A program made the translations under genes and the position numbers. From Bacteroidota bacterium (GTDB lineage: Bacteria; Bacteroidota; Ignavibacteria; Kapaibacteriales; HRBIN21): a DNA stretch of 64,000 bases. Of the stretch, positions 36,030 to 54,915 are shown piece by piece. Location: NCBI GenBank assembly GCA_030550395.1, contig JAUQPL010000010.1:12-64011 (forward strand), given 5' to 3'. The stretch's first letter is position 1; the number at the start of each line of letters is the position of its first letter. The notes below the pieces were generated by a model. It was not told the DNA's origin. It saw only the letters and a program-made list of their open reading frames with translations, and did not search any database.

Positions 36030-38363
36030 TCACACGCCGCTTACCCGCTTACTGTCCATCACAGTGACAACAGCTTCCTGAGGCCGCTTCGATTGCCCAT
36101 CCCTCAATTTCCGCCCAGGGATACCCCGCAACCGCTGCGCCCCACTCCAGAGGAGTCCTACAACCACCAGCATCCCCCCTAGCCAGACCAAGTTGATACC
36201 TGGCTTAAGAGAAAACTCTACCGTGAACACCTCCCGCTCCCGAGCGCCCCGAGGACGAACTCCTATCACAGCCTGTGAACGGGCAATATCCTGCCGCTCA
36301 GGAAGAATGCGGAGTAGTCCTATCTCAAAGAGGTCCCGTACGGGAATCCACTCTGGCTGCGTACGTTCTAAGTCAAGCATCCGCATTGGCAGACGGAGTG
36401 TATCGGACCGGGGAGCGTTCGAGGACAGTTCGATCCACACAGCAAGCGTCAGGGTGTCACCCTGCACCGGTCCCATCTCAAAGCGCAGCAGGCGGACCTG
36501 CACGGTGCTATCGGTGGGAAGCCGCCCTATTTCACCCCGCCGAAGGACAAGCTCCGCTGCCGCACCCTCTGTTTCTACAGCTTTCGGAGCCATGTAAAGG
36601 TCAGCGGCAACCCGCCAAGCAATCCCCGGTTCTAAAAAAGCTGCCTGCCGCCGGTTGTAATCGCTCCAGAAAAGCACCGGGAAGAGCTCTGCACGGGAAT
36701 GACCAGTTTCAACGCGAACTCGATAGCGCCACTTTTCCCGGTCCGTATACTGCCTCTCAATCTGCTCCCGCCCCTCGTAGGTTAGACGATATACCCCTAC
36801 TTGAACCGGCTCCCCCTGGGGCAATCGCACGTGGACCGTCCACGACAGCGATGCCAGCGTCACAACTCCCAGCACCAGCAACGCCACTCCCGCATGAGCA
36901 CTCCAGGCCCCGAGCATCCGTGGATTACGCCGAACGTGCTCAATCAGAAGTCGTCCATTGATCCCTAGGGCCACCCATGCCGTTGACCCCAAGGCAAGGA
37001 GTGCTACATCTCGCACTCCAACTGCCCATAGGGACCCTGTTCCCACCACAGCAACGCCCAGAGGAAGGAGAAGACGTCGCCCGAAGAGACGTCCTGGCGT
37101 TGCGCGCCATTGGAGCAAGAGCGAAAGCCCATTGAGCAGCAAAATCCATGCGCCGATGGGTATGTGCAGTACATTGTAGAACCGTTGCTCAATAGCGACC
37201 TTGGGCCGCCCCAATAGCTCCGCCACGATAGGATAGCTTGTCCCGACGAGCACAACCACGGCACTGACCGCCAATCCCAGAGCACCCAAGGCAAGCATCA
37301 GCTCTCGGGAATTCGGCGGCAACACAAGGGCCTGCATCCCCAACTCTTTCCAGCGCGTAAAGAGGAAAAAAGCGCTGACCCCCGCCCCTGCTACCATCAG
37401 CCCCAGCAACAGCGCATAGGCAAAGAAGCCCGGATCCACGAATGAGTGTACGGAAGTGTCGCCCAAAACTCCGCTACGAGTCAGGAAAGTTGAGTATAGC
37501 ACTGCAAGGAATGCCAAAACAGTCAGCACGACATTGGTGCGGACAACTCCTCCCGTCCTCCGCTGGATAAGGACTGTATGCAGAACAGCGACAGTGAACA
37601 ACCATGGGACCAACGAGGAATTCTCCACCGGATCCCATGCCCAGAATCCCCCCCAGCCCAATGTCTCATATGCCCATAGTCCCCCCAGCAAAATGCCTAA
37701 TCCAAGGACAGCCGCAGCCCCACCCAACCACGGGAGTGCTGCGATGACCCACCGCTGGTACTCCCGCCGCCAAAGTCCTGCTATAGCCAAGGCAAAAGGC
37801 ACCGTCACCAATGTAAACCCCAGGAAGAGCACGGGCGGATGGAAAACAATCCAGTAGTTGTGCAGCAAGGGATTCAGCCCCCGCCCGTCGTGTGGCTGGA
37901 ATCCCTCCGCAATCCCCTGTCCAGCGTACGTTTCCCAAACAAAGGTGAAAGGATTCTTCGCCACCAGCAATAGGAGCATCCCGGCCAATACACCAGTGTA
38001 CACGCTCATCACCTCTGCCTCCCATCCCCAGCGCCGCGCGAAGGCTCGCACAGCAAATCCTACAAGCGCCAACCAGAAACTCCACAGCAGCAAGCTCCCC
38101 TCCTGCCCAGCATAGCTACTTGCAATCAGCAAATGGAGCGGCAATTGCCGAGAGGAGTGAGACCAAACGTAGGTGTAGCGGAACTCATGGAGCAGCGTGC
38201 TTATCAGCAAAACCAACCATATCACGCTCACTCCAATGCCTACCACCGTATATCCCAGCCGGGCCGGCACTATATACTCCCGTCGGCAACGGGCAAGCAC
38301 GTATCCAACACTCGTTGCTACTGCAAGCGCCCAGACAAGATGAACCAAAAACTGAGCTACCAT
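36030..38363 (-). CDS. ccmF: cytochrome c-type biogenesis heme lyase CcmF
   Basis: WWD domain (WGGFWAWDPVENSSLVPW), multi-TM protein of 777 aa with a periplasmic C-terminal domain. Confidence 0.85.
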   Translation of the reverse strand: MVAQFLVHLVWALAVATSVGYVLARCRREYIVPARLGYTVVGIGVSVIWLVLLISTLLHEFRYTYVWSHSSRQLPLHLLIASSYAGQEGSLLLWSFWLALVGFAVRAFARRWGWEAEVMSVYTGVLAGMLLLLVAKNPFTFVWETYAGQGIAEGFQPHDGRGLNPLLHNYWIVFHPPVLFLGFTLVTVPFALAIAGLWRREYQRWVIAALPWLGGAAAVLGLGILLGGLWAYETLGWGGFWAWDPVENSSLVPWLFTVAVLHTVLIQRRTGGVVRTNVVLTVLAFLAVLYSTFLTRSGVLGDTSVHSFVDPGFFAYALLLGLMVAGAGVSAFFLFTRWKELGMQALVLPPNSRELMLALGALGLAVSAVVVLVGTSYPIVAELLGRPKVAIEQRFYNVLHIPIGAWILLLNGLSLLLQWRATPGRLFGRRLLLPLGVAVVGTGSLWAVGVRDVALLALGSTAWVALGINGRLLIEHVRRNPRMLGAWSAHAGVALLVLGVVTLASLSWTVHVRLPQGEPVQVGVYRLTYEGREQIERQYTDREKWRYRVRVETGHSRAELFPVLFWSDYNRRQAAFLEPGIAWRVAADLYMAPKAVETEGAAAELVLRRGEIGRLPTDSTVQVRLLRFEMGPVQGDTLTLAVWIELSSNAPRSDTLRLPMRMLDLERTQPEWIPVRDLFEIGLLRILPERQDIARSQAVIGVRPRGAREREVFTVEFSLKPGINLVWLGGMLVVVGLLWSGAQRLRGIPGRKLRDGQSKRPQEAVVTVMDSKRVSGV

Positions 38364-39201: not shown

Positions 39202-39357
39202 CTATAAACGCCCTGTCCCGACCTCCCGTTCCCACACCCGTTGAAGACGCCGCAGCCTCCGCTCAACCCATAGGAGCAATCCGGCTACCCCCGCCCAGAC
39301 AACCAACACCACCCAGAAGACGACGTACTCACCGTGCTGCTCCAAAAACTCCATCAT
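39202..39357 (-). CDS. ccmD: heme exporter protein CcmD (51 aa, single TM)
   Basis: Hand-translated from the reverse strand: MMEFLEQHGEYVVFWVVLVVWAGVAGLLLWVERRLRRLQRVWEREVGTGRL*. Not in the ORF track (under 60 aa). Overlaps the ccmC 3' end, as is typical. Confidence 0.6.
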   Translation of the reverse strand: MMEFLEQHGEYVVFWVVLVVWAGVAGLLLWVERRLRRLQRVWEREVGTGRL

Positions 39358-40474
39358 CGGCAACTTCCCGCCATCGAAGGATATCCCGTAACTGCAGAAC
39401 CCGAGTTACACAACTCCACAGCCAGCCGAACAGGGCCGTGAAAGCCAGCAACGAGAAACTGAAAAGAAGCTGCTTCAGCGGATTGAGAGACCCCGGCGAT
39501 GGGTCAATGACCGGACCAATCGTGGAATCACCTCTCCCGCCAGGGTGGAGGCTTTCCATCATACGCGGGAGCACGAATATCAAGAACGGTACCGTGATGA
39601 AAGCAAATACAAGGTAGACGCTTCCCAACCGCGCCCGCTGTTCCCCTTCCGGCAGCGATGTCCGCAGAGCGAAGTAGGCAAGGTAAATCAGCAGCAGCAC
39701 AACAATGGTTGTTTGCCGGGGGTCCCAATTCCAGAAAGCACCCCAGTTAAAGCGTGCCCAAATTGCTCCCGTAAGGGTTGCCAAGACCGTGAAAACCGTC
39801 CCCACGATCACTGCTGCCATCGCTCGAATGTCCATCCAAGGTTGAGGACGTCGGAGATATTGCAGGGCGAAAATCATTGCCAGCGCATAGGCAAATACTG
39901 CTACCCACGCCAGTGGAACGTGGAAGTAGAGAATCCGCGCCCGCTCTCCCAAGCCAGGAATGTACGGCAGAACGACCCACGGCTCTATTGCCGTAATGCG
40001 CTGGGCAATCCATACGCTGTCCGAACCAGTCCACTGAACCCTGACTATTGCCGAGCGCGCTCGTAGAAAGCTCGCAGACGGCTCTTCTGCAAAGAGCAAT
40101 ATCGCTTCCCGAGACCGTCGCCCTTTGTCCTCCACTCTCACTTGCCATACACGACGCGTAGTATCATAGCGTGCTGGGCTAACACAGCGCAGCAGGACTG
40201 GCACGGTTAGCTCTGCTGTCCGCAGACGCTCAGCCTCCTTCCTGCTCATCAGGGATAGCGTTGCCCGCTGCCACTCCCGATTGACTGCAATGAATGCTTC
40301 ATCAAAGCTCCCCCCAATGGGAGGCAGTAGCACCGCACACAGCAATACCGTCAAAATCCCAATGACCATCCACTGCCACCACAACGGACGCGAGCGTTCC
40401 GGAGGATATACTACCGCCACCGCAATCCCAACAGCAAGTGCTCCCAAAAGCAGCACGTACTTCATCACCCTCAC
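39329..40474 (-). CDS. ccmC: heme exporter protein CcmC with N-terminal extension of about 180 aa
   Basis: C-terminal about 200 aa holds the CcmC WWD motif (WGAFWNWDPRQ) and conserved His-containing loops. The N-terminal part (2 TM plus soluble domain) has no recognised family. Start is GTG at 40474 or ATG at 40465. Confidence 0.75.
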   Translation of the reverse strand: MRVMKYVLLLGALAVGIAVAVVYPPERSRPLWWQWMVIGILTVLLCAVLLPPIGGSFDEAFIAVNREWQRATLSLMSRKEAERLRTAELTVPVLLRCVSPARYDTTRRVWQVRVEDKGRRSREAILLFAEEPSASFLRARSAIVRVQWTGSDSVWIAQRITAIEPWVVLPYIPGLGERARILYFHVPLAWVAVFAYALAMIFALQYLRRPQPWMDIRAMAAVIVGTVFTVLATLTGAIWARFNWGAFWNWDPRQTTIVVLLLIYLAYFALRTSLPEGEQRARLGSVYLVFAFITVPFLIFVLPRMMESLHPGGRGDSTIGPVIDPSPGSLNPLKQLLFSFSLLAFTALFGWLWSCVTRVLQLRDILRWREVADDGVFGAAR

Positions 40475-47115: not shown

Positions 47116-48291
47116 ATGCAACCGGCGGAGCATCGTACAATCCAACTTGCACGACGCCTTGTTCTGACACTGGGGCTTGTCAGCTTCTTTGCAGACGCAA
47201 CGTACGAAGGAGCACGGAGCATTACCGGACCTTTTCTGGGAGTGCTGGGCGCCAGCGCTGCCACAATCAGCCTCATTGCCGGTTGTGGTGAACTGGTTGG
47301 CTATGCTCTCCGTGGGGTCTCAGGCTACTTGAGCGACCGAACTAGCCGTTACTGGCTCTGGATATGGCTGGGGTACAGCGTGAATCTCCTTTCCGTCCCC
47401 CTGCTTGCTGCAGCTCCTAATTGGGAAGTGGCTGCTGTCTTGATTGTGAGCGAGCGATTGGGAAAGGCACTCCGTACACCTGCTCGCGATGTCCTATTGG
47501 CCTCAGCCGGACGCTTCCTTGGCTACGGTCGCGCCTTTGGTCTTCATGAACTGCTGGACCAGATCGGGGCTGTCCTGGGTCCTCTCTTGGTAGCAGCTGT
47601 TCTAAGCCGGGGTGGGGAGTACCGAAGTAGCTTTATAGCCCTCCTTGTCCCCGCCGTACTTGCCCTAATAGCACTGCTGCCTGCCCGTATTACCCCGACA
47701 TTACGGTCAGAGTCTTCCCAAGCTCGCACCGTATTCCGTATCCGCACCCTCAGCCGCCAATTCTGGCTTTACATTATCGCCATGGCGCTCACAGCAGCCG
47801 GCACAGCAGATTTTGCGCTCATCGCCTTCCATCTCCAGGCAACCAGTGCCATACCCTCCGCATGGATTCCCCTTTCTTACGCCCTGGCGATGGGAATCGA
47901 TGCCTTAGCTGCCCTTATCCTGGGACGCATGTATGACCGTGTAGGGCTCCGATTACTCCCCGCCGCGGTCGGTATTGCTACTGTAGCAGCACCTCTGGTC
48001 TTCCTGAGCCCCTTCCCCGCCGCCCTTGCCGGTCTTGTTCTCTGGAGCATCAGCATTGGTCTTCAAGAATCTATTGCTCGTGCAGCTCTTACCAACTTCG
48101 TTGCTCCTGAATGGCACGGCACGGCGTACGGAATCTTCCACGCTATCTTCGGAATCTCCTGGTTCCTCGGCAGTGCTGCCATGGGATTGCTCTATACATG
48201 CTCCCCTGCACTTCTGGTCACCTTCGCCATCACGACATACAGTGTCGCCTGCCTCTTGCTCTATCTCCTTGCCAAGGGCCGTCAGATGTAG
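47116..48291 (+). CDS. MFS transporter
   Basis: 12 predicted TM and a G..DR..R-like loop. Family only. Confidence 0.75.
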   Translation: MQPAEHRTIQLARRLVLTLGLVSFFADATYEGARSITGPFLGVLGASAATISLIAGCGELVGYALRGVSGYLSDRTSRYWLWIWLGYSVNLLSVPLLAAAPNWEVAAVLIVSERLGKALRTPARDVLLASAGRFLGYGRAFGLHELLDQIGAVLGPLLVAAVLSRGGEYRSSFIALLVPAVLALIALLPARITPTLRSESSQARTVFRIRTLSRQFWLYIIAMALTAAGTADFALIAFHLQATSAIPSAWIPLSYALAMGIDALAALILGRMYDRVGLRLLPAAVGIATVAAPLVFLSPFPAALAGLVLWSISIGLQESIARAALTNFVAPEWHGTAYGIFHAIFGISWFLGSAAMGLLYTCSPALLVTFAITTYSVACLLLYLLAKGRQM

Positions 48292-48403: not shown

Positions 48404-49804
48404 TCAGTACACAAACAGCGGAAGAAGAGCAGTCCGGTCTCCCGCCACAAGGCGAAGAACATACGAGCCAGCAGGAACCATTGGGCGCGAAAGGGGGAGC
48501 AAAACAGCTAATCGCCCCGACTCTCCAACTGGAAGCTGCCACGCATAGCAGCGACGTCCGTCAAGGCTGAATAGCTCCGCCTGGACCATCTGCCCTCCAT
48601 ACCCAGATAACTCCCATTCCACCCACACTGGACCCTCATTGAGAATTGTTGGTCGCACTCGCGGCTGTCCCGCCTGGAGAGGCTTCTGAGCAACCGAGGT
48701 AGGCAACACCAGCCGAAAGACCGCCAAGACGCTATCGGCAGCATACGCCGGCGTAAAGACTTGCGCAACCCACAACTCCAGTGTATCTCCTAAGCGTCGC
48801 ACTGCCATGCCCTCAGCAAGCCCAGTCAGCGATAAGACCTGTAGAATATTGCCCGTGGCAATATCGATCCAGCGCACTTCCCGGCTATAGGTGCTGACCA
48901 ACAGGGTCCGTTGTCCGTTCGGCAGAGTCAACAGAAGCGCTTCCCGCGGTCCACCATAGCCACTGGTACCCACAGCAATCGGCATCCGATGCCAAAGGCG
49001 AGTTGTTGGGTCTATCAAGAAGATTTCATGGGAGCCATTGGCGACAACGACTAATGTGTCCCCGGAGAGGAGCAGGAAATTCCCCGTGTCTCCGACAGGT
49101 ACAATCACTGTAGCTGAGTCTTTGGCATTCGGGAGGAAATGGACACTCGCATTATTGCCCCCGAAAGTTCCCTCGCACAGCACAATGAGCTGTCGCCGGG
49201 CAGAGTCCCAGAGTAGCTGTTGGATATTCGGACAGCCCCCAAGGCGGAAGCTGTCCACTATCCCAACACCAGGAAGCACTTTGAGGATAAGTCCCTCCTC
49301 AGAAGAGGCACGTCGGCTGACAACGAGCGTATCTCCGAGCACAAGGACTGCTTGCGCTGCTCCCAAAAGCACTGTATCCTCATGAGGCTGCCCGAAAGGA
49401 GGAAACGTATGCCGTGTCAGGCGATCAATTCGAGGTAAGTAGAGCACGAAACGGTCGCCTTCTCGTCTCACAGCAGGGCGCACAGGAAAGCTCAATACCC
49501 CCCACGGGAATGTCCAATTGAAGCTGGAAAGAGAACCCCCAGCTTCTTCGTATGCAACCGTTAAAGAGGGCGGTTCATCTTCGGCATCTGGTTGCCCATT
49601 GAAATTTGCGTCCACCCCTACACAGAGCACGTATGCCGTGCTAAAAGAGTCAGGGTTTCCCTCTCTTGCTCCCCAGAAGAGCCCAACAGGGGCTTTCCCC
49701 AGCGTTTCATGAAAGCGAACAAACTCCCACTGGTACTGCTGTGCTATCGCAGAGAACCCATAGAGAAACACAAAAGCACCCAAGCAGACAGAGCGCCTGA
49801 CCAT
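48404..49804 (-). CDS. secreted beta-propeller-like protein with T9SS C-terminal domain
   Basis: Signal peptide (MVRRSVCLGAFVFLYGFSAIAQQ). Repeated blades. C-terminal tail AELFSLDGRRCYAWQLP...SYVLRLVAGDRTALLPLFVY. Confidence 0.55.
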   Translation of the reverse strand: MVRRSVCLGAFVFLYGFSAIAQQYQWEFVRFHETLGKAPVGLFWGAREGNPDSFSTAYVLCVGVDANFNGQPDAEDEPPSLTVAYEEAGGSLSSFNWTFPWGVLSFPVRPAVRREGDRFVLYLPRIDRLTRHTFPPFGQPHEDTVLLGAAQAVLVLGDTLVVSRRASSEEGLILKVLPGVGIVDSFRLGGCPNIQQLLWDSARRQLIVLCEGTFGGNNASVHFLPNAKDSATVIVPVGDTGNFLLLSGDTLVVVANGSHEIFLIDPTTRLWHRMPIAVGTSGYGGPREALLLTLPNGQRTLLVSTYSREVRWIDIATGNILQVLSLTGLAEGMAVRRLGDTLELWVAQVFTPAYAADSVLAVFRLVLPTSVAQKPLQAGQPRVRPTILNEGPVWVEWELSGYGGQMVQAELFSLDGRRCYAWQLPVGESGRLAVLLPLSRPMVPAGSYVLRLVAGDRTALLPLFVY

Positions 49805-50201
49805 AGCACATCGCTCAGATTGATGGAACATACACCACTCAGGAATGCCCATGCAGGTGGGGAAAGGGACTGCTTCGGCAAGGAGCCCCTACTACCGGGA
49901 CAGCCTGTACTGTGCAGGCTTTCCATCCCCTTCCCTTGCAGGCAGGTCTTCCGGCTCCGGGTTCTTCCTCCTCCCCTGCCTTCCCATCTGCAAGCGCAGA
50001 CAGTGGCTGCCTTCTCGGCTTTGGGGAATCGTCCCCCGTCACGGCGGCACAGACCGCGCAGGATTTGCACCTGCTTCCCTATTCTCCAGGCTTACCCCAA
50101 AGGGGCAAGCCCAGCACCTGCAAAAGGCATCTAAAGCAAAAATAGCAAAAACCCTCGCCTCCGCCAGGGCGGAAAAAAGGAGCTCTATTACATAGGAGTG
50201 C

Positions 50202-50221
50202 CAATTGTCTGGCGACAATTG
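50202..50221 (+). promoter_or_regulatory. perfect inverted repeat CAATTGTC-TGGC-GACAATTG (candidate repressor operator) overlapping the promoter of the FNT/heme-copper-oxidase cluster
   Basis: 8-bp arms are perfect reverse complements separated by 4 bp. It ends 1 nt before the TATATTTG -7 box and lies about 60 nt upstream of the FNT ATG. Confidence 0.45.
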
Positions 50222-50229
50222 TATATTTG
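50222..50229 (+). promoter_or_regulatory. FCB-type sigmaA -7 box (TAnnTTTG: TATATTTG) upstream of the FNT gene
   Basis: Matches the Bacteroidetes -7 consensus. A TTG lies 15 nt upstream. 53 nt before the ATG at 50283. Confidence 0.4.
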
Positions 50230-50282
50230 CACTGGCATCCATTCCTTATGGAGAAAGTCATCCGTCATCGCATAAAGAAGCC

Positions 50283-51059
50283 ATGTATCTGCGTCCTGAA
50301 GAAGCCATAGCCTCCATGATCGCAACGGCGCAGAAGAAAGCAGGGCTACCATGGCAGATACTGATCATACGCGGATTCCTCTCGGGTGCATTGTTAGGCT
50401 ATGCAACTTCCTTAGCACTGGTGCCACAGGTACAAGGACTGCCCCCGTTCGTCGGGGCCATGATTTTCCCTGTTGGCTTCGTGTTATTGGTCCTGCTGGG
50501 GTTAGAGTTGGCAACTGGGAACTTTGCTCTATTGCCGCTGGCCGCATTTGCGCGGCAACTCACTGCCACACACGTTGTCCGTAACTGGCTCTGGGTGTAC
50601 GTAGGGAACTTGCTGGGCGGACTCTGCTACGCCCTGTTCTACACGACGGCAATTCACGATGAGAAGTTAAGTGCTCTCCTCATCACACTTGCCCATCGGA
50701 AGACGCTCGCTTATCAAGCAATGGGCGCCGCTGGGTGGGGAATCGCCCTGCTCAAAGGGGTTCTCTGTAACTGGATGGTCACGCTGGGTACTGCCATCGC
50801 TTTCTTTTCAACAACGACGACGGGCAAAGTGCTGACCATGTGGCTACCGATTATGGCATTCTTTGCTCTCGGCTACGAGCATAGCGTGGTCAACATGTTT
50901 GTTATCCCGTCCGCCCTCTTCCTGGGAGCGCCTTCTCTGACGGTGAGCACCTGGTGGGTGTGGAATCAAATCCCGGTCACTCTCGGCAACATCATCGGCG
51001 CCATTCTGTTGACCAGCCTTCCTCTCTTGACATATACCCGGTCCGTCCCACAAGCATAA
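50283..51059 (+). CDS. formate/nitrite transporter family channel (FocA/NirC-like)
   Basis: FNT signatures GLELATGNF and GYEHSVVNMF. 6 TM. Confidence 0.8.
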   Translation: MYLRPEEAIASMIATAQKKAGLPWQILIIRGFLSGALLGYATSLALVPQVQGLPPFVGAMIFPVGFVLLVLLGLELATGNFALLPLAAFARQLTATHVVRNWLWVYVGNLLGGLCYALFYTTAIHDEKLSALLITLAHRKTLAYQAMGAAGWGIALLKGVLCNWMVTLGTAIAFFSTTTTGKVLTMWLPIMAFFALGYEHSVVNMFVIPSALFLGAPSLTVSTWWVWNQIPVTLGNIIGAILLTSLPLLTYTRSVPQA

Positions 51060-51072
51060 AGGGAGCCGCGTC

Positions 51073-51621
51073 ATGTCACAGAGCACCGTACTTACCTTAT
51101 TCTTGCTCGGCACAGCTATCATTGCGATAGTGTTCTGGTGGGTGTGGCGAAGCTCTTATCAGACCGCTTCTCAGAGTGTTGAACCTCTACGACGGTGGGT
51201 CTTCATTGGGCTGCTCGTCTTCGCAGGTATCTTTACTGGGCTAACACTTTCCCGAATGCCGTATTTTCTCTACGCCGACGAGATGCCGGCACGGGTTGTG
51301 CACGTTGTTGCCCGGCAATTTGCCTTTGCAATCTCAGAGCGACCGATTGAAAACGATGCGGACTATGCAGCAGCTTTAGGTCAGACGGTAGAGCTTCCCG
51401 TAGGTCAGGTAGTGGAATTCCGCGTGACTTCCTTCGACGTCAACCACGGCTTTGCTCTCTATGCTCCCCATGGGCGGATTGTAGCACAAGTCCAGGCAAT
51501 GCCTGGATACATCAACCGGCTACGGTGGCGCTTTGATCAACCGGGCGAGTACATTGCCCAATGTCTGGAATACTGTGGCGCTGCCCATGCTGGTATGCAC
51601 GCCCGCTTTGTGGTTAAATAA
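51073..51621 (+). CDS. heme-copper oxidase subunit II, CuA-containing, B-family (ba3)-like
   Basis: Single TM plus cupredoxin. CuA ligands FDVNHGF ... CLEYCGAAHAGMH (H, C-x-E-x-C-G-x2-H-x2-M). The layout resembles Thermus ba3 CbaB. Confidence 0.85.
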   Translation: MSQSTVLTLFLLGTAIIAIVFWWVWRSSYQTASQSVEPLRRWVFIGLLVFAGIFTGLTLSRMPYFLYADEMPARVVHVVARQFAFAISERPIENDADYAAALGQTVELPVGQVVEFRVTSFDVNHGFALYAPHGRIVAQVQAMPGYINRLRWRFDQPGEYIAQCLEYCGAAHAGMHARFVVK

Positions 51622-51645
51622 GGTCAAACAAACAGAGGAGCACCC

Positions 51646-53070
51646 ATGAAGGCGTTGGACCGCATTACAGCTGCATGGATTGTGACAGTGTTGCTTGTCT
51701 TCCCCATTGCAATCCTCTTAGGTATCCTAATGCGCCTCAACCAGGCGAACGTGCTGGAGCTGTCATCGCTGACTTTTTATTCCTTTATGACAGCTCATGG
51801 ACTCCTCATGGTGGGCATTTGGTTCACCATGAGTATGGCAGGGGTTAGTTACCTGCTCCAGCGGTATGTTGAGGTCAAAGTGTGGCCAGTCACCCTGGGG
51901 TATGTACTGACGCTTGTCGGGGTTGTGCTTCTTCTTGCAGCAATTTTTCTCGGCGACTTCCACACTGGATGGTATTTCCTCTACCCACTCCCTTTCTATG
52001 CCCGCACCGAGCAATGGGCAACCACAGCCTTCCTCCTCTCTCTGGGGAGCCTAGGAGTAGGCTGGACTGTCTGGGTACTGGGATTGCTGGTAGCAATCCT
52101 GCGGAAATACTCCCTCTCTCAAGCACTAGCGTGGCAACACTTGGTGGGTAAACAAGAACCCGAGACACCCCCGTTTATCCTTATTACGACGACAACTCTC
52201 CTGGGACTGGTACCCGCATTCATTGCCGCTGTCGTGCTGCTGGTGCTCTTCTTTATTGAGCACCTAAGCGGAGTTAAGCAAGACGCCCTGCTGATGAAGA
52301 ATCTCACCTTCTACTTCGGGCATACGCTGGTCAACGAGATGCTCTACTTCGGAATTGCAACGCTCTACGAGCTTTTCCCCTCGTTTGCTGGGAAGCCACC
52401 ATACAAGACCAAACCTTTCGTAGCAGCAGCATGGAACCTGGTATTACTGGTAGTATGGACGGCGTACTTCCATCACCTGTACATGGACTTTGTGCAGCCG
52501 ACCGTCGTTCAATACATTGGACAGCTAGCCTCCTGGATTGCCCCAATTCCCGCTGTTGCCGTAACCACATTCTCTGTATTGGCGACAGTATACCGCTCGG
52601 GAATGAAGTGGTGGTTAGCACCCACGTTCTTCTTTACCGGCGTGATGTTCTGGATTATCGGCGGACTTGGGGCAATTCTGGACGCTATCGTAGCCAACAA
52701 CTTTGTACTCCACAACACGCTGTGGGTGCCGGGTCATTTCCACACGTACAATCTCCTGGGGAATGTGCTTTTTAGCCTGGGCTTCATCACATGGTTCGTT
52801 CGGGAAAAGAGCGGTGACGACAGTAGCCGTCTCTACCGCCCCGTAGCAACGTTGTACCTGCTGGGAGGAACTGGATTTGTCTTGGCATTCTTCATTGCCG
52901 GGAGCGCTTCGGTCATGCGCCGGGTGGACAAGTACCCGCACCTGGTCAGCAGTGGGAGTTTCTGGGCCCTTATCGGTGCTATTTTTGTACTGTTTGTCCT
53001 GACAGCTGTTCTCTTCTACGTCTTCCATGCTGTCCGACGATGCTGGCGTGTATTAGTGGGCTCCTCCTGA
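51646..53070 (+). CDS. heme-copper oxidase superfamily subunit I, B-family-derived, with Tyr->Asn/Glu at the His-Tyr cross-link position (nitric-oxide-reductase-like)
   Basis: All six His ligands present: H51; H226 (GHTLV); H276/H277 (YFHHLY); H364/H366 (HNTLWVPGHFH). Where ba3 has GHPIVY, this protein has GHTLVNE (N230, E231). Length is 474 aa. Confidence 0.85.
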   Translation: MKALDRITAAWIVTVLLVFPIAILLGILMRLNQANVLELSSLTFYSFMTAHGLLMVGIWFTMSMAGVSYLLQRYVEVKVWPVTLGYVLTLVGVVLLLAAIFLGDFHTGWYFLYPLPFYARTEQWATTAFLLSLGSLGVGWTVWVLGLLVAILRKYSLSQALAWQHLVGKQEPETPPFILITTTTLLGLVPAFIAAVVLLVLFFIEHLSGVKQDALLMKNLTFYFGHTLVNEMLYFGIATLYELFPSFAGKPPYKTKPFVAAAWNLVLLVVWTAYFHHLYMDFVQPTVVQYIGQLASWIAPIPAVAVTTFSVLATVYRSGMKWWLAPTFFFTGVMFWIIGGLGAILDAIVANNFVLHNTLWVPGHFHTYNLLGNVLFSLGFITWFVREKSGDDSSRLYRPVATLYLLGGTGFVLAFFIAGSASVMRRVDKYPHLVSSGSFWALIGAIFVLFVLTAVLFYVFHAVRRCWRVLVGSS

Positions 53071-53798
53071 TTGCAACAGGTATCCTAGGAGCACAGCTCA
53101 ACGAGGGGCGCTATTATCTGCGTAGACTGCCTGATGTTCCCCTCATACTCACAGATGGGGAGCAGACGTCCCTGTACCGTTTCCTCCAACACCAATCCAT
53201 CCTCCTCACTCTTTTTTCGGCTCGCTGTGGGGGACTCTGCTCCCCGTACCTTCTCTTTCTCAAGCAAGCGCTGGGTACCGCACCGGAGGGCTTTACCGTA
53301 TTAGCCCTAAGCTTTGACAGTCGCGACACTCGTTCCGACGTCCGGGCAATGGCACACCGCTTAGGACTAGCAGAACAGCCAGGATGGCGATGGGGCATTA
53401 TTCCTCCGGAGCATATCCCACGCCTACTGACCACTCTGGGTTACTCCGTGCGATACGACAGCGCTCGCAGGGAATACGACCACTCCATTGTCGTTGTAGT
53501 CATTGACCGACGCGGAAACATCCTCCGCCGCATGGAAGGAATTCAAGACGCGTCGCTACTCAAAGACCTTGTCCGTGAAGCCCGGGGAGAGTTCGTTCTA
53601 TCATATCCCCTCCCCACAACAGAAGTAGCTCTCCGCTGTTTTGAACTGGACAAAGAAACCGGCTCTTGGCGACTGAGCTGGGGCATGGCGCTACTTCTGA
53701 TTCCGCCAGCAACTTCTTTCGTTGTTGCCGTGCTCCTCCAATTACTGCTCCTCCCCGTGCGACGCGCCAAGAGCTGCCAGAAGGGAAGTGCATGTTAG
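53040..53798 (+). CDS. Sco1/SenC-family copper chaperone
   Basis: Thioredoxin fold with CGGLCSP (CxxxCP) and a downstream conserved His (YDHSIVVVVIDRRG). C-terminal TM. Confidence 0.7.
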   Translation: MLACISGLLLIATGILGAQLNEGRYYLRRLPDVPLILTDGEQTSLYRFLQHQSILLTLFSARCGGLCSPYLLFLKQALGTAPEGFTVLALSFDSRDTRSDVRAMAHRLGLAEQPGWRWGIIPPEHIPRLLTTLGYSVRYDSARREYDHSIVVVVIDRRGNILRRMEGIQDASLLKDLVREARGEFVLSYPLPTTEVALRCFELDKETGSWRLSWGMALLLIPPATSFVVAVLLQLLLLPVRRAKSCQKGSAC

Positions 53799-53883
53799 TC
53801 GCATAAGGATACAAAAGCCTCTTCCATGCGGTCTTCGGCAGCGGCAGATTTCTATTGCTCAGTAAATACTAGGTGCTACTTCC

Positions 53884-54915
53884 ATGCGCAGATTGCTCCT
53901 CCTGACACTTGTAGCCGGAATTTCTGTTTCTACCCTCCGCACACAGCAGAATGCGTTAGCAGTGAGAGGATACTTCTTCGGCGATTACTTCTACAAGCCC
54001 GGCGGAGACTCCACAGCGCTTCCAGGACAATATACCCAGTACCGGCGGGATGCCCATGCGTTCCAGTTCCGCCGCCTCTACTTTTGGGCTGACGCACAGC
54101 CAAGCACTCACTGCTCGGTACGGTTCCTCCTGGAAGCGACCGACGCCTCGTTAGACGAGCGCCGACGATACTCGTTCTTTGTCAAAGAGGCCTCCATCAC
54201 ATGGGATAGTCTTGGCTTCCCATTTGTGCAAGTACAAGGTGGTCTCATCCCAACGCCAACCTGGCGCTTAGTAGAGCAGTACTGGGAACGCAGCCTGGAA
54301 CGCACTGTTACAGACTTCTGGAACTGGGGAAATGCCGTGGACTTTGGTATTGCTCTCCGCGGTCAGTTCCCGTCAGAACATCCTATCGTTCGTAGCACTC
54401 TTATGGTGGGCAGCGGAGAGGGACCACGTCTGGAGATAGACCGTTTGAAAAAGCTTTACGCCCAAATCGCCTTGCAGCTATGGAAGACCACGTGGCTTGA
54501 GCTCTACAGCGACTGGGACATTACCACAACAGCACAAGGCACCAGCACGTTCAAAGCATTCCTGGGACACCAACAGCAATGGTTCCGAGGAGGAATGGAA
54601 GTGGTGCTTCGCCGATTCCACGTATCGGGGCAGTTGGTTTTGCCAGTGGGGATCAGCTTTTTCGGCAGCTTCCGGCTGCTGGAAAAACCGGCACTGCAGA
54701 CTATAGCTCGCTATGACTGGATAAACGACAACCGTCGGACATCCGACCAAGGCTTCATCCATCACTTCGCGCTCGTAGGGCTGGAATACGCTCCTCTGCC
54801 ACAGCTCCGCCTGACACCGAATCTCTGGCTCCTGGGACATACTGCCAAAGGAAACACCCCTCACCTCAAAACGGATGTCGTCGCCCGTCTAACCTTTTTC
54901 GTGATGTATCCGTAA
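53884..54915 (+). CDS. putative outer-membrane beta-barrel protein (porin-like), hypothetical
   Basis: Signal peptide. Alternating amphipathic beta-strand pattern rich in aromatics. No family recognised. Confidence 0.45.
   Translation: MRRLLLLTLVAGISVSTLRTQQNALAVRGYFFGDYFYKPGGDSTALPGQYTQYRRDAHAFQFRRLYFWADAQPSTHCSVRFLLEATDASLDERRRYSFFVKEASITWDSLGFPFVQVQGGLIPTPTWRLVEQYWERSLERTVTDFWNWGNAVDFGIALRGQFPSEHPIVRSTLMVGSGEGPRLEIDRLKKLYAQIALQLWKTTWLELYSDWDITTTAQGTSTFKAFLGHQQQWFRGGMEVVLRRFHVSGQLVLPVGISFFGSFRLLEKPALQTIARYDWINDNRRTSDQGFIHHFALVGLEYAPLPQLRLTPNLWLLGHTAKGNTPHLKTDVVARLTFFVMYP

What the first reader, a model, noticed from the sequence alone, without database searches (positions are those of the whole stretch)
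50202..53798. Heme-copper oxidase cluster whose catalytic subunit has Asn-Glu in place of the cross-linked Tyr: likely a B-family-derived nitric oxide reductase rather than an O2 reductase
Subunit I (51646-53070) retains every metal ligand of a B-family (ba3-type) oxidase: H51; H226; H276/H277 (YFHHLY); H364/H366 (HNTLWVPGHFH). Where ba3 has GHPIVY (H233-Y237, the His-Tyr cross-link needed for O2 reduction), it reads GHTLVNE (codons at 52321-52341), with N230 and E231. Loss of the cross-link Tyr plus a new active-site carboxylate is the signature used to define NOR families that arose from oxygen reductases. The protein is also short (474 aa, NorB-like). It sits with a CuA subunit II (intact H, C-x-E-x-C-G-x2-H-x2-M site), a Sco CuA-assembly chaperone and, immediately upstream, an FNT channel of the family that includes the NirC nitrite channel. 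All four genes lie behind one promoter carrying a perfect palindromic operator. Together this looks like a self-contained, regulated NO-detoxification or denitrification module.
Basis: partly seen in the sequence, partly recalled or inferred. Interest (0 to 1): 0.75.

Follow-up and report, generated by a model that had tools for sequence, protein, structure and literature searches.

The report
sNOR-type nitric oxide reductase gene cluster
This is a four-gene cluster from a Kapabacteria-like bacterium: a nitrite-type channel, a copper-A subunit, a haem-copper catalytic subunit lacking the tyrosine that oxygen reduction needs, and a copper chaperone. It belongs to the already proposed but never purified "sNOR" family of nitric oxide reductases, so it is a new member of a known kind.

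Summary
ORFs at 50283-51059 (FNT channel), 51073-51621 (CuA subunit II), 51646-53070 (subunit I) and 53040-53798 (Sco-like) are real. Subunit I keeps all six His ligands and reads GHTLVNE where ba3 reads GHPIVYF (Y237→N230, F238→E231).

Tyr→Asn with a CuA subunit and a linked SenC/Sco gene is the published signature of sNOR (Hemp & Gennis 2008; Murali et al. 2024). The ba3 K-path Ser309 is Ala303, and Glu242 is invariant in the 186 close relatives, as described for sNOR.

The protein falls in an Asn-type clade sister to Tyr-containing oxidases. Its subclade has an invariant Asn-Glu pair (186/186 sequences) and includes Hydrogenobacter thermophilus (60% identity) and Methylomirabilis oxyfera (54%). 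Ruegeria and Bacillaceae sNORs are only about 36% identical and lack Glu231.

Context favours N-oxide chemistry:
- narGHJI-narK lies directly upstream in Hydrogenobacter.
- Rrf2 regulators flank 20 of 80 loci.
- The FNT belongs to a subfamily usually found beside assimilatory nitrite reductases.

FNT linkage is lineage-specific. The palindrome is real, but such repeats occur at about chance frequency in this window and it is not conserved. NO reductase activity remains unproven for any sNOR.

Verdict: new member of a known kind; interest 0.33.

The parts
50202..50221 (.). Perfect inverted repeat CAATTGTC-TGGC-GACAATTG (core TTGTC-N4-GACAA) abutting the -7 box; function unknown
   Evidence: Sequence read. 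Single exact copy in the window and none in 80 related loci. Absent from the orthologous promoters of L001 and L002. 8-nt perfect inverted repeats occur at about chance frequency: 18 against 12.7 ± 4.8.
50222..50229 (+). TATATTTG, matching the Bacteroidetes-type -7 promoter element TAnnTTTG (consensus from my own knowledge); probable operon promoter about 55 nt upstream of the FNT ATG
   Evidence: Conserved in the upstream regions of Kapabacteria loci L001, L002 and L086. A sigma-70-like match overlaps it. No transcript data.
50283..51059 (+). FNT-family anion channel (258 aa from the conserved ATG; the mechanical ORF starts at TTG 50205), probably a nitrite channel
   Evidence: PF01226 at 5.9e-64. 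The start MYLRPEE is conserved. Best PDB match is the NAR1-type LCIA at 1.6e-26, ahead of HSC, FocA and NirC. In 80 metagenome loci this subfamily sits beside NIR_SIR (37), NirB-like (24), NirD-like (15), HemD (30) and SUMT (20) genes.
51073..51621 (+). Subunit II (NorS-like): two N-terminal TM helices plus a cupredoxin domain with a complete CuA site
   Evidence: PF00116 at 1.3e-9. H125, C164, C168, H172 and M175 are invariant in 77/77; two hydrophobic segments at residues 6-24 and 39-57. It lies 13 nt after the FNT stop.
51646..53070 (+). Subunit I (NorY-like), 474 aa, 12 TM helices, six His ligands, Asn230 in place of the cross-link Tyr
   Evidence: PF00115 at 1.7e-54. ba3 alignment. AF2 model with pLDDT 83.6, pTM 0.88 and 12 long helices. 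Foldseek gives TM 0.75-0.81 to A- and B-family subunit I. Placement in the Asn-type clade.
52333..52338 (+). Codons of Asn230-Glu231, at the positions of ba3 Tyr237-Phe238
   Evidence: Both residues are invariant in 186/186 unique sequences of the subclade. Glu231 is replaced by I, L, M, A or S in the other Asn-type clades.
53040..53798 (+). Divergent Sco/SenC-like protein (252 aa) with a CxxxC motif (C63, C67), His148, a C-terminal extension carrying invariant Cys200, and a C-terminal TM helix; its start overlaps the subunit I stop by 31 nt
   Evidence: No Pfam hit of its own. 26/29 orthologues hit PF02630. The profile hits PDB Sco proteins 3me7 (3e-13), 4hde and 1on4. Invariant residues. A homologue is present in 79 of 80 loci, directly downstream of subunit I in 78.

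Best explanation
The cluster encodes a member of the sNOR family: a two-subunit, CuA-containing haem-copper enzyme derived from B-type oxidases, with its dedicated Sco/SenC copper chaperone. In this Kapabacteria lineage it is probably co-transcribed with a nitrite-type FNT channel.

Inferred mechanism:
- A periplasmic donor (cytochrome c or a cupredoxin) passes electrons to CuA in subunit II.
- Electrons move to the low-spin haem (His51/His366) and then to the binuclear centre. That centre is the high-spin haem on His364 plus a metal held by His226, His276 and His277.
- Asn230 replaces the His-Tyr cofactor that supplies the fourth electron for O2 reduction. The site is therefore suited to the two-electron reaction 2NO + 2H+ + 2e- → N2O + H2O.
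- Protons are likely delivered along a modified K-path (Tyr241, Glu242, Thr307, Ser310, with Ala303 where ba3 has Ser309). Glu231 may also take part, or may contribute to the metal site.
- The FNT moves nitrite across the inner membrane, and the enzyme removes the NO that arises from nitrite.

Shown here: the gene content, ligands, motif, family placement and recurrent genomic contexts. Inferred: the substrate, the electron donor, the proton route, co-transcription, and whether the role is detoxification or respiration.
For: - Tyr→Asn, with all six His retained.
- The literature defines sNOR and bNOR/CuANOR by Asn at this site. It describes the Bacillus 'type II' enzyme, the form taken here to be Murali et al.'s sNOR, as a short 12-TMH subunit I with a 2-TMH CuA subunit II and SenC. 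This is exactly the architecture found here (PMC8756737 Table A4; PMC3475470).
- Murali et al. describe the sNOR K-channel as lacking Ser309 and having a conserved Glu. Here Ala303 replaces Ser309 and Glu242 is invariant.
- In an NJ tree the Asn-type sequences are sister to GHPVVY oxidases. The window protein groups with H. thermophilus and M. oxyfera, an organism reported to carry an sNOR.
- Subunit II, subunit I and Sco are conserved in 77-79 of 80 GTDB loci.
- Context is linked to N-oxides. In H. thermophilus the order is narGHJI-NarK-SUII-SUI-Sco on one strand. narGHI lies upstream in L011, and Rrf2 regulators occur in 20 of 80 loci. In Ruegeria an NsrR-like Rrf2 and an FNT flank the cluster, and in Thermomicrobium an FNT follows subunit I.
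- The FNT subfamily is mostly found beside assimilatory nitrite reductase and sirohaem genes.
Against: - No sNOR has been purified or assayed. Murali et al. characterised only eNOR, and bNOR was characterised earlier.
- Sedlacek et al. (bioRxiv 10.1101/765727) argue that the Nitrosomonas sNOR may be a high-affinity O2 reductase, because it is induced 2.7- to 10.8-fold under O2 limitation and lacks the NorB glutamates.
- The window protein is only about 36% identical to the Ruegeria sNOR and sits in a different subclade.
- I could not retrieve the founding Nitrosomonas NorY sequence.
- The window holds no nir, nos or NO-sensor gene within 27-64 kb.
- FNT linkage is rare: 3 of 80 HCO loci, and 4 of 32 well-flanked FNT loci.
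- My tree is a distance tree on a small set of representatives.
Confidence: 0.6

Rival explanations
1. It is a terminal O2 reductase: a B-type-like, high-affinity, NO-tolerant oxidase that works without the His-Tyr cofactor or with very low turnover, used under micro-oxic conditions.
For: The Nitrosomonas sNOR genes rise 2.7- to 10.8-fold under O2 limitation, and the authors propose an oxidase role. The protein has three His for a CuB-type site and lacks the cNOR pattern with Glu at the Tyr position. Its fold is closest to A- and B-family oxidases, with no cNOR, qNOR or cbb3 structure in the top 50.
Against: According to the literature read here, every characterised HCO O2 reductase has the cross-linked Tyr, which provides the fourth electron. 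Asn230 is invariant in this clade. The Ser309 K-path residue is lost. The genomic partners are Nar, NarK, FNT and Rrf2 rather than aerobic respiratory genes.
Confidence: 0.17
2. It catalyses a different reaction on a nitrogen oxide or another small molecule. Candidates are NO dismutation, nitrite or N2O reduction, or peroxide or sulfide chemistry. In this reading the invariant Asn-Glu pair marks a specialised active site distinct from other sNORs.
For: Glu231 is invariant in 186/186 subclade members and absent from the other Asn-type clades. The wider HCO superfamily already contains proposed NO dismutases and N2O reductases. Frequent neighbours include DUF2249 and AhpD-like CMD proteins of unclear role.
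Against: No positive evidence points to any specific alternative substrate. The architecture and ligands are those of sNOR and bNOR, and bNOR is an established NO reductase with Asn at the same site.
Confidence: 0.13
3. The FNT gene is merely a neighbour with no functional link to the enzyme. The palindrome is either a chance inverted repeat or belongs to the divergent, riboswitch-controlled gene.
For: FNT is adjacent in only 3 of 80 HCO loci. Only 4 of 32 well-flanked loci of this FNT subfamily carry an HCO. The palindrome is not conserved and is not above chance. A divergent promoter and a cobalamin riboswitch lie within about 80 nt of it.
Against: The FNT-subunit II gap is 13 nt, on the same strand, and is conserved in at least four Kapabacteria-like loci. 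FNT genes also lie beside Asn-type HCOs in Acidobacteria, Thermomicrobium and Ruegeria, the last with an FNT of a different subfamily. In Hydrogenobacter a NarK-type nitrate/nitrite porter occupies the same position.
Confidence: 0.3

Closest known systems
sNOR (NorS-NorY with SenC and orf1) of ammonia oxidisers, Ruegeria (Silicibacter) pomeroyi, Bacillaceae and 'Ca. Methylomirabilis oxyfera' (Stein et al. 2007; Hemp & Gennis 2008; Murali et al. 2024)
   Same: Asn replaces the cross-link Tyr and all six His ligands are kept. Subunit I is short (12 TMH). Subunit II is a CuA type with two TM helices. A SenC/Sco gene lies directly downstream. Ser309 is lost while a conserved Glu follows Tyr241. 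Rrf2 and FNT genes occur nearby in Ruegeria.
   Different: Identity to the Ruegeria enzyme is only 36.5% and the subclade differs. Glu231 next to the Asn is invariant here but is Ala or Ser in Ruegeria and Cytobacillus. No separate 'orf1' membrane gene is present; instead the Sco-like protein carries a C-terminal extension and TM helix. The FNT lies upstream rather than downstream.
bNOR / qCuANOR of Bacillus azotoformans (biochemically characterised, electrogenic)
   Same: B-family-derived, CuA subunit II, Asn at the Tyr position, linked SenC. Murali et al. state that sNOR and bNOR have the same active-site structure.
   Different: bNOR subunit I is about 568 aa with 13 TMH, has a K-channel like ba3, includes a 46-aa third subunit, and is restricted to Bacillales. 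The window protein has 474 aa and 12 TMH, with Ala at the Ser309 position.
ba3-type cytochrome c oxidase of Thermus thermophilus (B-family O2 reductase)
   Same: Same fold and ligand set. ba3 has the highest sequence identity among solved structures (21-22%). It has a CuA subunit II, and K-path residues Tyr248, Thr312 and Thr315 are retained as Tyr241, Thr307 and Ser310.
   Different: Tyr237→Asn230, Ser309→Ala303 and Tyr244→Ile237. The protein is about 90 residues shorter (12 versus 13 TMH).
cNOR/qNOR (NorB) and nNOR
   Same: Members of the same superfamily. They lack the cross-link Tyr and have a carboxylate close to the metal-binding His on helix VI.
   Different: cNOR, qNOR and nNOR have Glu at the Tyr position itself (H-x3-E) as a fourth FeB ligand. 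They use a haem c subunit or quinol, and nNOR has a His/Met low-spin haem. Here the pattern is H-x3-N-E, with a CuA subunit and a His/His low-spin haem. No cNOR or qNOR structure appears among the top 50 fold matches.

Membership tests
Haem-copper oxidoreductase superfamily, subunit I | Six conserved His: two for the low-spin haem, one for the high-spin haem, three for CuB/FeB | tested here: met
   H51, H366; H364; H226, H276, H277. All are invariant in relatives. PF00115 at 1.7e-54.
B-family (ba3-type) O2 reductase | Cross-linked His-Tyr cofactor (H233-Y237 in ba3) | tested here: not met
   Asn230 aligns with Tyr237 and is invariant in 186/186 sequences.
B-family (ba3-type) O2 reductase | K-path Ser309 (ba3 numbering) | tested here: not met
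   Ala303 occupies that column. All Tyr-bearing representatives have Ser there.
sNOR | Asn in place of the cross-link Tyr (Hemp & Gennis 2008, as tabulated in PMC8756737) | tested here: met
sNOR | CuA-containing cupredoxin subunit II encoded next to subunit I | tested here: met
   H125, C164, C168, H172 and M175 are invariant in 77/77; two N-terminal TM helices, as in the Bacillus type II enzyme.
sNOR | SenC/Sco gene in the cluster (norSY-senC-orf1) | tested here: met
   A Sco-like ORF overlaps the subunit I stop. A homologue is present in 79 of 80 loci, and family-level matches to PF02630 and PDB Sco proteins were found. No separate orf1 is present.
sNOR | Modified K-channel: Ser309 missing and a conserved Glu elsewhere (Murali et al. 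2024) | tested here: met
   Ala303, and Glu242 invariant here and present in the Ruegeria and Cytobacillus enzymes. Which Glu the authors mean is my inference, because their Dataset S1 was not available.
sNOR | Phylogenetic grouping with recognised sNORs (ammonia-oxidiser NorY, Ruegeria, Bacillaceae) | tested here: inconclusive
   Same Asn-type clade as Ruegeria and Cytobacillus in an NJ tree, but a different subclade at about 36% identity. It groups with M. oxyfera P0056, whose genome is reported to hold an sNOR but also encodes a second Asn-type enzyme. NorY of ammonia oxidisers was never retrieved.
sNOR | NO reductase activity | not testable with these tools
   Not demonstrated biochemically for any sNOR, according to the papers read.
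bNOR (qCuANOR) | Long (about 568 aa, 13 TMH) subunit I with a ba3-like K-channel; Bacillales only | tested here: not met
   474 aa and 12 helices. Ala at the Ser309 position. The host is Kapabacteria-like.
cNOR / qNOR / nNOR | Glu at the Tyr position as a fourth FeB ligand; haem c or quinol donor; nNOR has a His/Met low-spin haem | tested here: not met
   Asn sits at that position and the Glu is one residue later. The donor subunit is a CuA type. The low-spin haem ligands are His51 and His366.
eNOR / gNOR | eNOR: Gln at the Tyr position. gNOR: one metal-binding His replaced by Asp, and a subunit II without CuA | tested here: not met
   Asn230, all three His present, and an intact CuA site.
FNT channel (PF01226); NirC equivalog | FNT fold with the central His and Thr; NirC-level similarity | tested here: inconclusive
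   PF01226 at 5.9e-64. The central His and Thr (as recalled from FocA structures) appear as His200 and Thr78, invariant in the six aligned FNTs. The NirC and FocA equivalog models score far below their cut-offs. Nitrite is inferred as substrate from the neighbours of the subfamily.
Sco/SenC copper chaperone (PF02630) | Thioredoxin fold with CxxxC and a distal His | tested here: met
   C63-x3-C67 and H148 are invariant. The profile hits PDB Sco proteins at 3e-13 to 6e-8. The window protein alone does not reach the Pfam threshold.

The most novel reading that the evidence does not exclude
The Asn-Glu subclade (Kapabacteria, Bacteroidota, Hydrogenobacter, NC10; found in at least 562 GTDB species genomes) could be functionally distinct from classical sNOR. 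Glu231 would supply a carboxylate to the binuclear centre. That would create a cNOR-like His3-Glu site for non-haem iron on a B-family, CuA-fed scaffold, a third independent origin of the FeB-type site. The enzyme would be coupled to nitrate/nitrite handling through Nar-NarK or FNT and might conserve energy through the retained K-path.
Probability: 0.15. Interest if true: 0.6.

Novelty: new member of a known kind. Interest (0 to 1): 0.33.

Why it matters
sNOR-type enzymes are counted as NO reductases in denitrification and N2O-budget surveys, yet none has been purified, and their role (NO versus O2 reduction) is openly disputed for nitrifiers. This locus adds a Kapabacteria member.

The comparative work also shows three things:
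- A large, well-defined subclade has an invariant Asn-Glu pair.
- That subclade includes a culturable thermophile, Hydrogenobacter thermophilus. There the genes sit directly after the respiratory nitrate reductase genes and a NarK-type transporter gene.
- Nitrite or nitrate transporters have been recruited next to these enzymes several times.

This gives a practical route to the missing biochemistry. It does not change the current picture.

Tried and rejected
1. Retrieving the founding Nitrosomonas NorY to anchor the phylogeny. Three approaches failed. A search with the Ruegeria protein returned only Alphaproteobacteria in its top 120. A profile of the nearest sister clades returned Calditrichaeota and Vicinamibacterales MAGs. 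The plasmid collection held only Ruegeria, Thermomicrobium and Parasedimentitalea.

2. Supplementary datasets of Murali et al. (alignment, tree, channel table) are not held. Their Fig. 1B motifs could not be read.

3. Palindrome as a conserved operator: rejected. It is absent in L001 and L002. There is no exact second copy in the window or in 80 loci. It occurs at chance frequency. L086 has a different inverted repeat around the same -7 box.

4. A dedicated FNT subfamily co-evolving with the enzyme: rejected. Only 4 of 80 FNT-subfamily loci carry an HCO, and most sit beside assimilatory nitrite reductases.

5. The window MFS gene (47116-48291) as a NarK analogue: rejected. It shows no similarity to the Hydrogenobacter NarK-like gene and has no NCBIfam hit.

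6. Fold search to discriminate A- from B-family: uninformative, because both give TM 0.75-0.81.

7. Rfam scan of the upstream region for a cis-regulatory RNA of this operon. The only real hit is a cobalamin riboswitch on the opposite strand.

Full report
**What is in the sequence**

The region holds four co-directional ORFs on the + strand:
- an FNT channel (mechanical ORF 50205-51059),
- a 182-aa COX2-like protein (51073-51621),
- a 474-aa COX1-like protein (51646-53070),
- a 252-aa ORF (53040-53798).

The gaps are 13 nt and 24 nt, followed by a 31-nt overlap.

Pfam gives Form_Nir_trans at 5.9e-64, COX2 at 1.3e-9 and COX1 at 1.7e-54. It gives nothing for the fourth ORF. NCBIfam models for CtaD, CyoB, CoxB, FocA and NirC all score far below their curated cut-offs.

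phmmer against PDB aligns Thermus ba3 FGHPIVYFWLLPAYAIIY with FGHTLVNEMLYFGIATLY. Hence ba3 H233 = H226, Y237 = N230, F238 = E231 and Y248 = Y241. All six canonical His residues are present.

Subunit II has two N-terminal hydrophobic helices. Its full CuA ligand set (H125, C164, C168, H172, M175) is invariant in 77 of 77 orthologues.

An AlphaFold2 model of subunit I (pLDDT 83.6, pTM 0.88) shows 12 long helices. Foldseek matches A- and B-family subunit I at TM 0.75-0.81. ba3 gives the highest sequence identity (21-22%), and no cNOR, qNOR or cbb3 chain appears in the top 50.

**The fourth ORF**

The fourth ORF is not recognisable on its own. Homologues are found in 79 of 80 related loci. In an alignment of 29 of them, C63-x3-C67 and H148 are invariant. 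26 of 29 members hit PF02630 SCO1/SenC. The family profile hits solved Sco proteins (3me7 at 3e-13, 4hde, 1on4). It is therefore a divergent Sco/SenC. It also carries a C-terminal extension with an invariant Cys200 and a C-terminal TM helix.

**Relatives and family**

The subunit I protein occurs verbatim in a JGI metagenome. It is 84-86% identical to Candidatus Kapabacteria proteins, 60% to Hydrogenobacter thermophilus, 54% to 'Ca. Methylomirabilis oxyfera' and about 50% to many Bacteroidota and Ignavibacteriota proteins. At least 562 GTDB species genomes encode a relative detected with patterns from this subclade.

In 186 unique sequences of this subclade, N230, E231, Y234, Y241, E242, D281 and all six His are invariant.

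A search of 1.84 billion 50%-identity representatives, followed by alignment, shows a wider set of sequences (31-50% identity) that all carry Asn at the Tyr position. Sequences at about 30% identity carry GHP(V/I)VY. In an NJ tree rooted on the Tyr-bearing sequences, the Asn-type sequences group together and the Asn-Glu sequences form one subclade within them. The nearest sisters read N-I, N-L or N-M and come from Calditrichaeota and Vicinamibacterales MAGs.

**Comparison with the literature**

Hemp & Gennis (2008), as tabulated in PMC8756737, classify HCO families by the residue at the Tyr position:
- Y for O2 reductases,
- E for cNOR and qNOR,
- N for sNOR and CuANOR,
- Q for eNOR,
- D for gNOR.

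They list sNOR in Betaproteobacteria, Silicibacter, Deinococcus and Geobacillus.

Heylen & Keltjens (PMC3475470) describe a Bacillus azotoformans 'type II' enzyme. It has Asn at this site, a shorter 12-TMH subunit I, a CuA subunit II with two N-terminal helices, and linked SenC. I take this to be the sNOR that Murali et al. report in B. azotoformans. Every one of these features is found here.

Murali et al. (PMC11214002) make several relevant statements. They treat sNOR as a proposed, not yet characterised, NO reductase related to the B-family. They say its active site is the same as that of bNOR. They describe a K-channel that lacks Ser309 and has a conserved Glu elsewhere. They report that M. 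oxyfera carries qNOR, sNOR and gNOR.

Here the Ser309 column is Ala303, whereas all Tyr-bearing representatives have Ser. Thr312 and Thr315 are Thr307 and Ser310. Glu242 follows the conserved Tyr241.

The Ruegeria (Silicibacter) pomeroyi megaplasmid enzyme is 36.5% identical and reads GHVFINAS...YE. Its closest representative is a Cytobacillus (Bacillaceae) protein reading N-S...YE.

By every sequence criterion I could extract, the window protein is therefore an sNOR. It sits in a subclade different from the Ruegeria and Bacillaceae enzymes, and the extra Glu231 is specific to that subclade. I could not place the Nitrosomonas NorY. M. oxyfera-like genomes also encode a second Asn-type enzyme, so that anchor is ambiguous. 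The phylogenetic membership test is therefore left as inconclusive.

**Genomic context**

Across 80 GTDB loci the conserved unit is subunit II, subunit I and the Sco-like gene, found in 77, 80 and 79 loci respectively.

An FNT is adjacent only in the Kapabacteria loci L001 and L002 and, divergently, in an Acidobacteria MAG (L061). FNT genes also lie next to distant Asn-type enzymes:
- In Ruegeria the order is Rrf2 (divergent), subunit II, subunit I, SCO, a hypothetical gene, FNT, cytochrome c.
- In Thermomicrobium roseum the order is subunit II, subunit I, FNT, then a gene annotated as a cytochrome c oxidase assembly protein.

The Thermomicrobium and Acidobacteria FNTs are 54-55% identical to the window FNT. 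The Ruegeria FNT is only 28% identical, which points to independent recruitment.

In Hydrogenobacter thermophilus the genes lie directly after narG-narH-narJ-narI and a NarK-like MFS gene. All are on one strand with gaps of 0-3 nt or short overlaps around the HCO genes. L011 also has narGHI upstream.

Rrf2-family regulators lie nearby in 20 of 80 loci. The Ruegeria regulator scores best against the NsrR model, though below its cut-off. DUF2249 and AhpD-like CMD proteins are other frequent neighbours.

The window itself has no nir, nos, nar or regulator gene between 27 and 64 kb.

**The FNT**

Its best solved relative is the NAR1-type LCIA (1.6e-26), ahead of HSC, FocA and NirC.

A reciprocal test used 80 metagenome loci encoding this FNT subfamily (53-71% identity). 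Only 4 carry an HCO, which is 4 of the 32 loci with at least 2 kb on both sides. By contrast:
- 37 carry a NIR_SIR nitrite/sulfite reductase,
- 24 carry a NirB-like flavoprotein,
- 15 carry a NirD-like Rieske protein,
- 30 carry HemD,
- 20 carry a uroporphyrin methyltransferase.

The subfamily is therefore best read as a nitrite channel of the assimilatory type. In Kapabacteria it has been placed at the head of the sNOR operon. It is not a dedicated partner of the enzyme.

**Promoter and palindrome**

CAATTGTC-TGGC-GACAATTG lies at 50202-50221 and is immediately followed by TATATTTG (50222-50229). That octamer fits the Bacteroidetes -7 consensus TAnnTTTG, a consensus I cite from my own knowledge. 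It is conserved upstream of the FNT gene in L001, L002 and L086, as is the ATG start at 50283.

The palindrome is not conserved in those loci, and L086 has a different inverted repeat around the -7 box. It has no other exact copy in the window or in the 80 loci. Perfect 8-nt inverted repeats occur 18 times in the window against 12.7 ± 4.8 expected. Its TTG-N8-CAA core resembles CRP/FNR-type sites, but that is only a recalled resemblance.

The rest of the 430-nt intergenic region holds a cobalamin riboswitch on the minus strand (49924-50136, 102 bits). It leads the divergent gene 48404-49852 and is conserved in L001, L002 and L086.

**Interpretation**

The best-supported reading is an sNOR-type NO reductase with its copper chaperone, transcribed with a nitrite channel. 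Membership of the Asn-type, sNOR-like family is secure (about 0.85). NO reduction as the physiological reaction is the leading hypothesis (about 0.6). It rests on three things:
- loss of the Tyr cofactor that O2 reduction requires,
- analogy with the characterised bNOR, which has the same substitution,
- repeated association with nitrate and nitrite handling genes and Rrf2 regulators.

The main rival is a micro-oxic terminal oxidase, as proposed for Nitrosomonas sNOR.

The role of Glu231 is unknown.

**Novelty**

The family and its diagnostic substitution are published. This locus is a new member from Kapabacteria. Three modest additions come from this work. The first is the delineation of the invariant Asn-Glu subclade. 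The second is its linkage to narGHJI-narK in a culturable Hydrogenobacter. The third is the evidence that nitrite or nitrate transporters have been recruited next to these enzymes more than once.

Noticed in passing
window 49924-50136 (- strand); also L001 3222-3436, L002 4287-4502, L086 4637-4854: A full-length cobalamin riboswitch (RF00174, 102 bits, E 2.4e-26) lies in the intergenic region upstream of the FNT gene but on the opposite strand. It leads the 482-aa ORF 48404-49852, which has no Pfam or NCBIfam hit and a C-terminal tail resembling a T9SS sorting signal (by eye). That ORF may be a surface B12-capture protein. A TATTTTTG -7-like box lies on the minus strand at 50145-50138.
   Followed up: partly
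window 53884-54915 (+): A 343-aa ORF starts 86 nt after the Sco-like gene. It is conserved in the same position in Kapabacteria loci L001-L003 (46-54% identity) and absent from the other 77 loci. It has no Pfam, NCBIfam or PDB sequence match. It looks like a secreted, possibly outer-membrane, protein and could belong to the operon.
   Followed up: partly
L083 1-10115 (Hydrogenobacter thermophilus MAG contig JAXSNJ010000004.1); also L084: narG-narH-narJ-narI, a NarK-like MFS gene, subunit II, the Asn-Glu subunit I and a 235-aa Sco-like ORF all lie on one strand with gaps of 0-3 nt or short overlaps around the HCO genes. This places the closest relative from a cultured genus downstream of the respiratory nitrate reductase genes.
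   Followed up: partly
L086-L165 (metagenome loci): The FNT subfamily of the window is widespread in soil-type metagenomes. It usually sits beside NIR_SIR-type nitrite/sulfite reductase, NirB- and NirD-like genes and sirohaem synthesis genes (HemD, SUMT), often with an alginate-export-like porin.
   Followed up: yes
proteins P0129, P0138, P0139, P0141, P0143 (representatives, 590-684 aa): Among the Asn-type sequences there is a group of long forms reading GH(S/T)xANL(I/T)I. They have Val or Ala at the Glu242 column. For one related representative (P0132, 503 aa), the 90% cluster also holds a 665-aa form and a fragment labelled oxidase subunit 3, so the long forms may carry a fused subunit-III-like extension. 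Their family assignment under the published scheme is unclear.
   Followed up: no
window 53040-53798; alignment A3: The Sco-like proteins of this cluster type share a roughly 60-residue C-terminal extension (…EFV(L/P)xY…C200-F-x-(Y/L)D…G…) with an invariant Cys and a C-terminal TM helix. This differs from the canonical Sco architecture, in which, from my own knowledge, the anchor is N-terminal only. It may replace the separate 'orf1' of norSY-senC-orf1 clusters.
   Followed up: partly
L086 about 4943-4966 (upstream of its FNT gene): In this Kapabacteria-like metagenome contig the conserved TATATTTG box is enclosed by a different perfect inverted repeat (CGGCGCC…GGCGCCG). This suggests either lineage-specific operators or coincidental hairpins at this promoter.
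   Followed up: no
window 36030-38363 (-) and 39329-40474 (-): Genes for CcmF-like and CcsA-like cytochrome c biogenesis proteins lie 10-14 kb upstream of the cluster. This is consistent with a c-type cytochrome electron supply, but they are not linked to the cluster.
   Followed up: no
window 50001-54000: The cluster region has lower G+C (0.535-0.539) than most of the window (mostly 0.55-0.58) and a near-zero GC skew, while the rest of the window is negative. This may simply reflect membrane-protein composition and the switch of coding strand.
   Followed up: no
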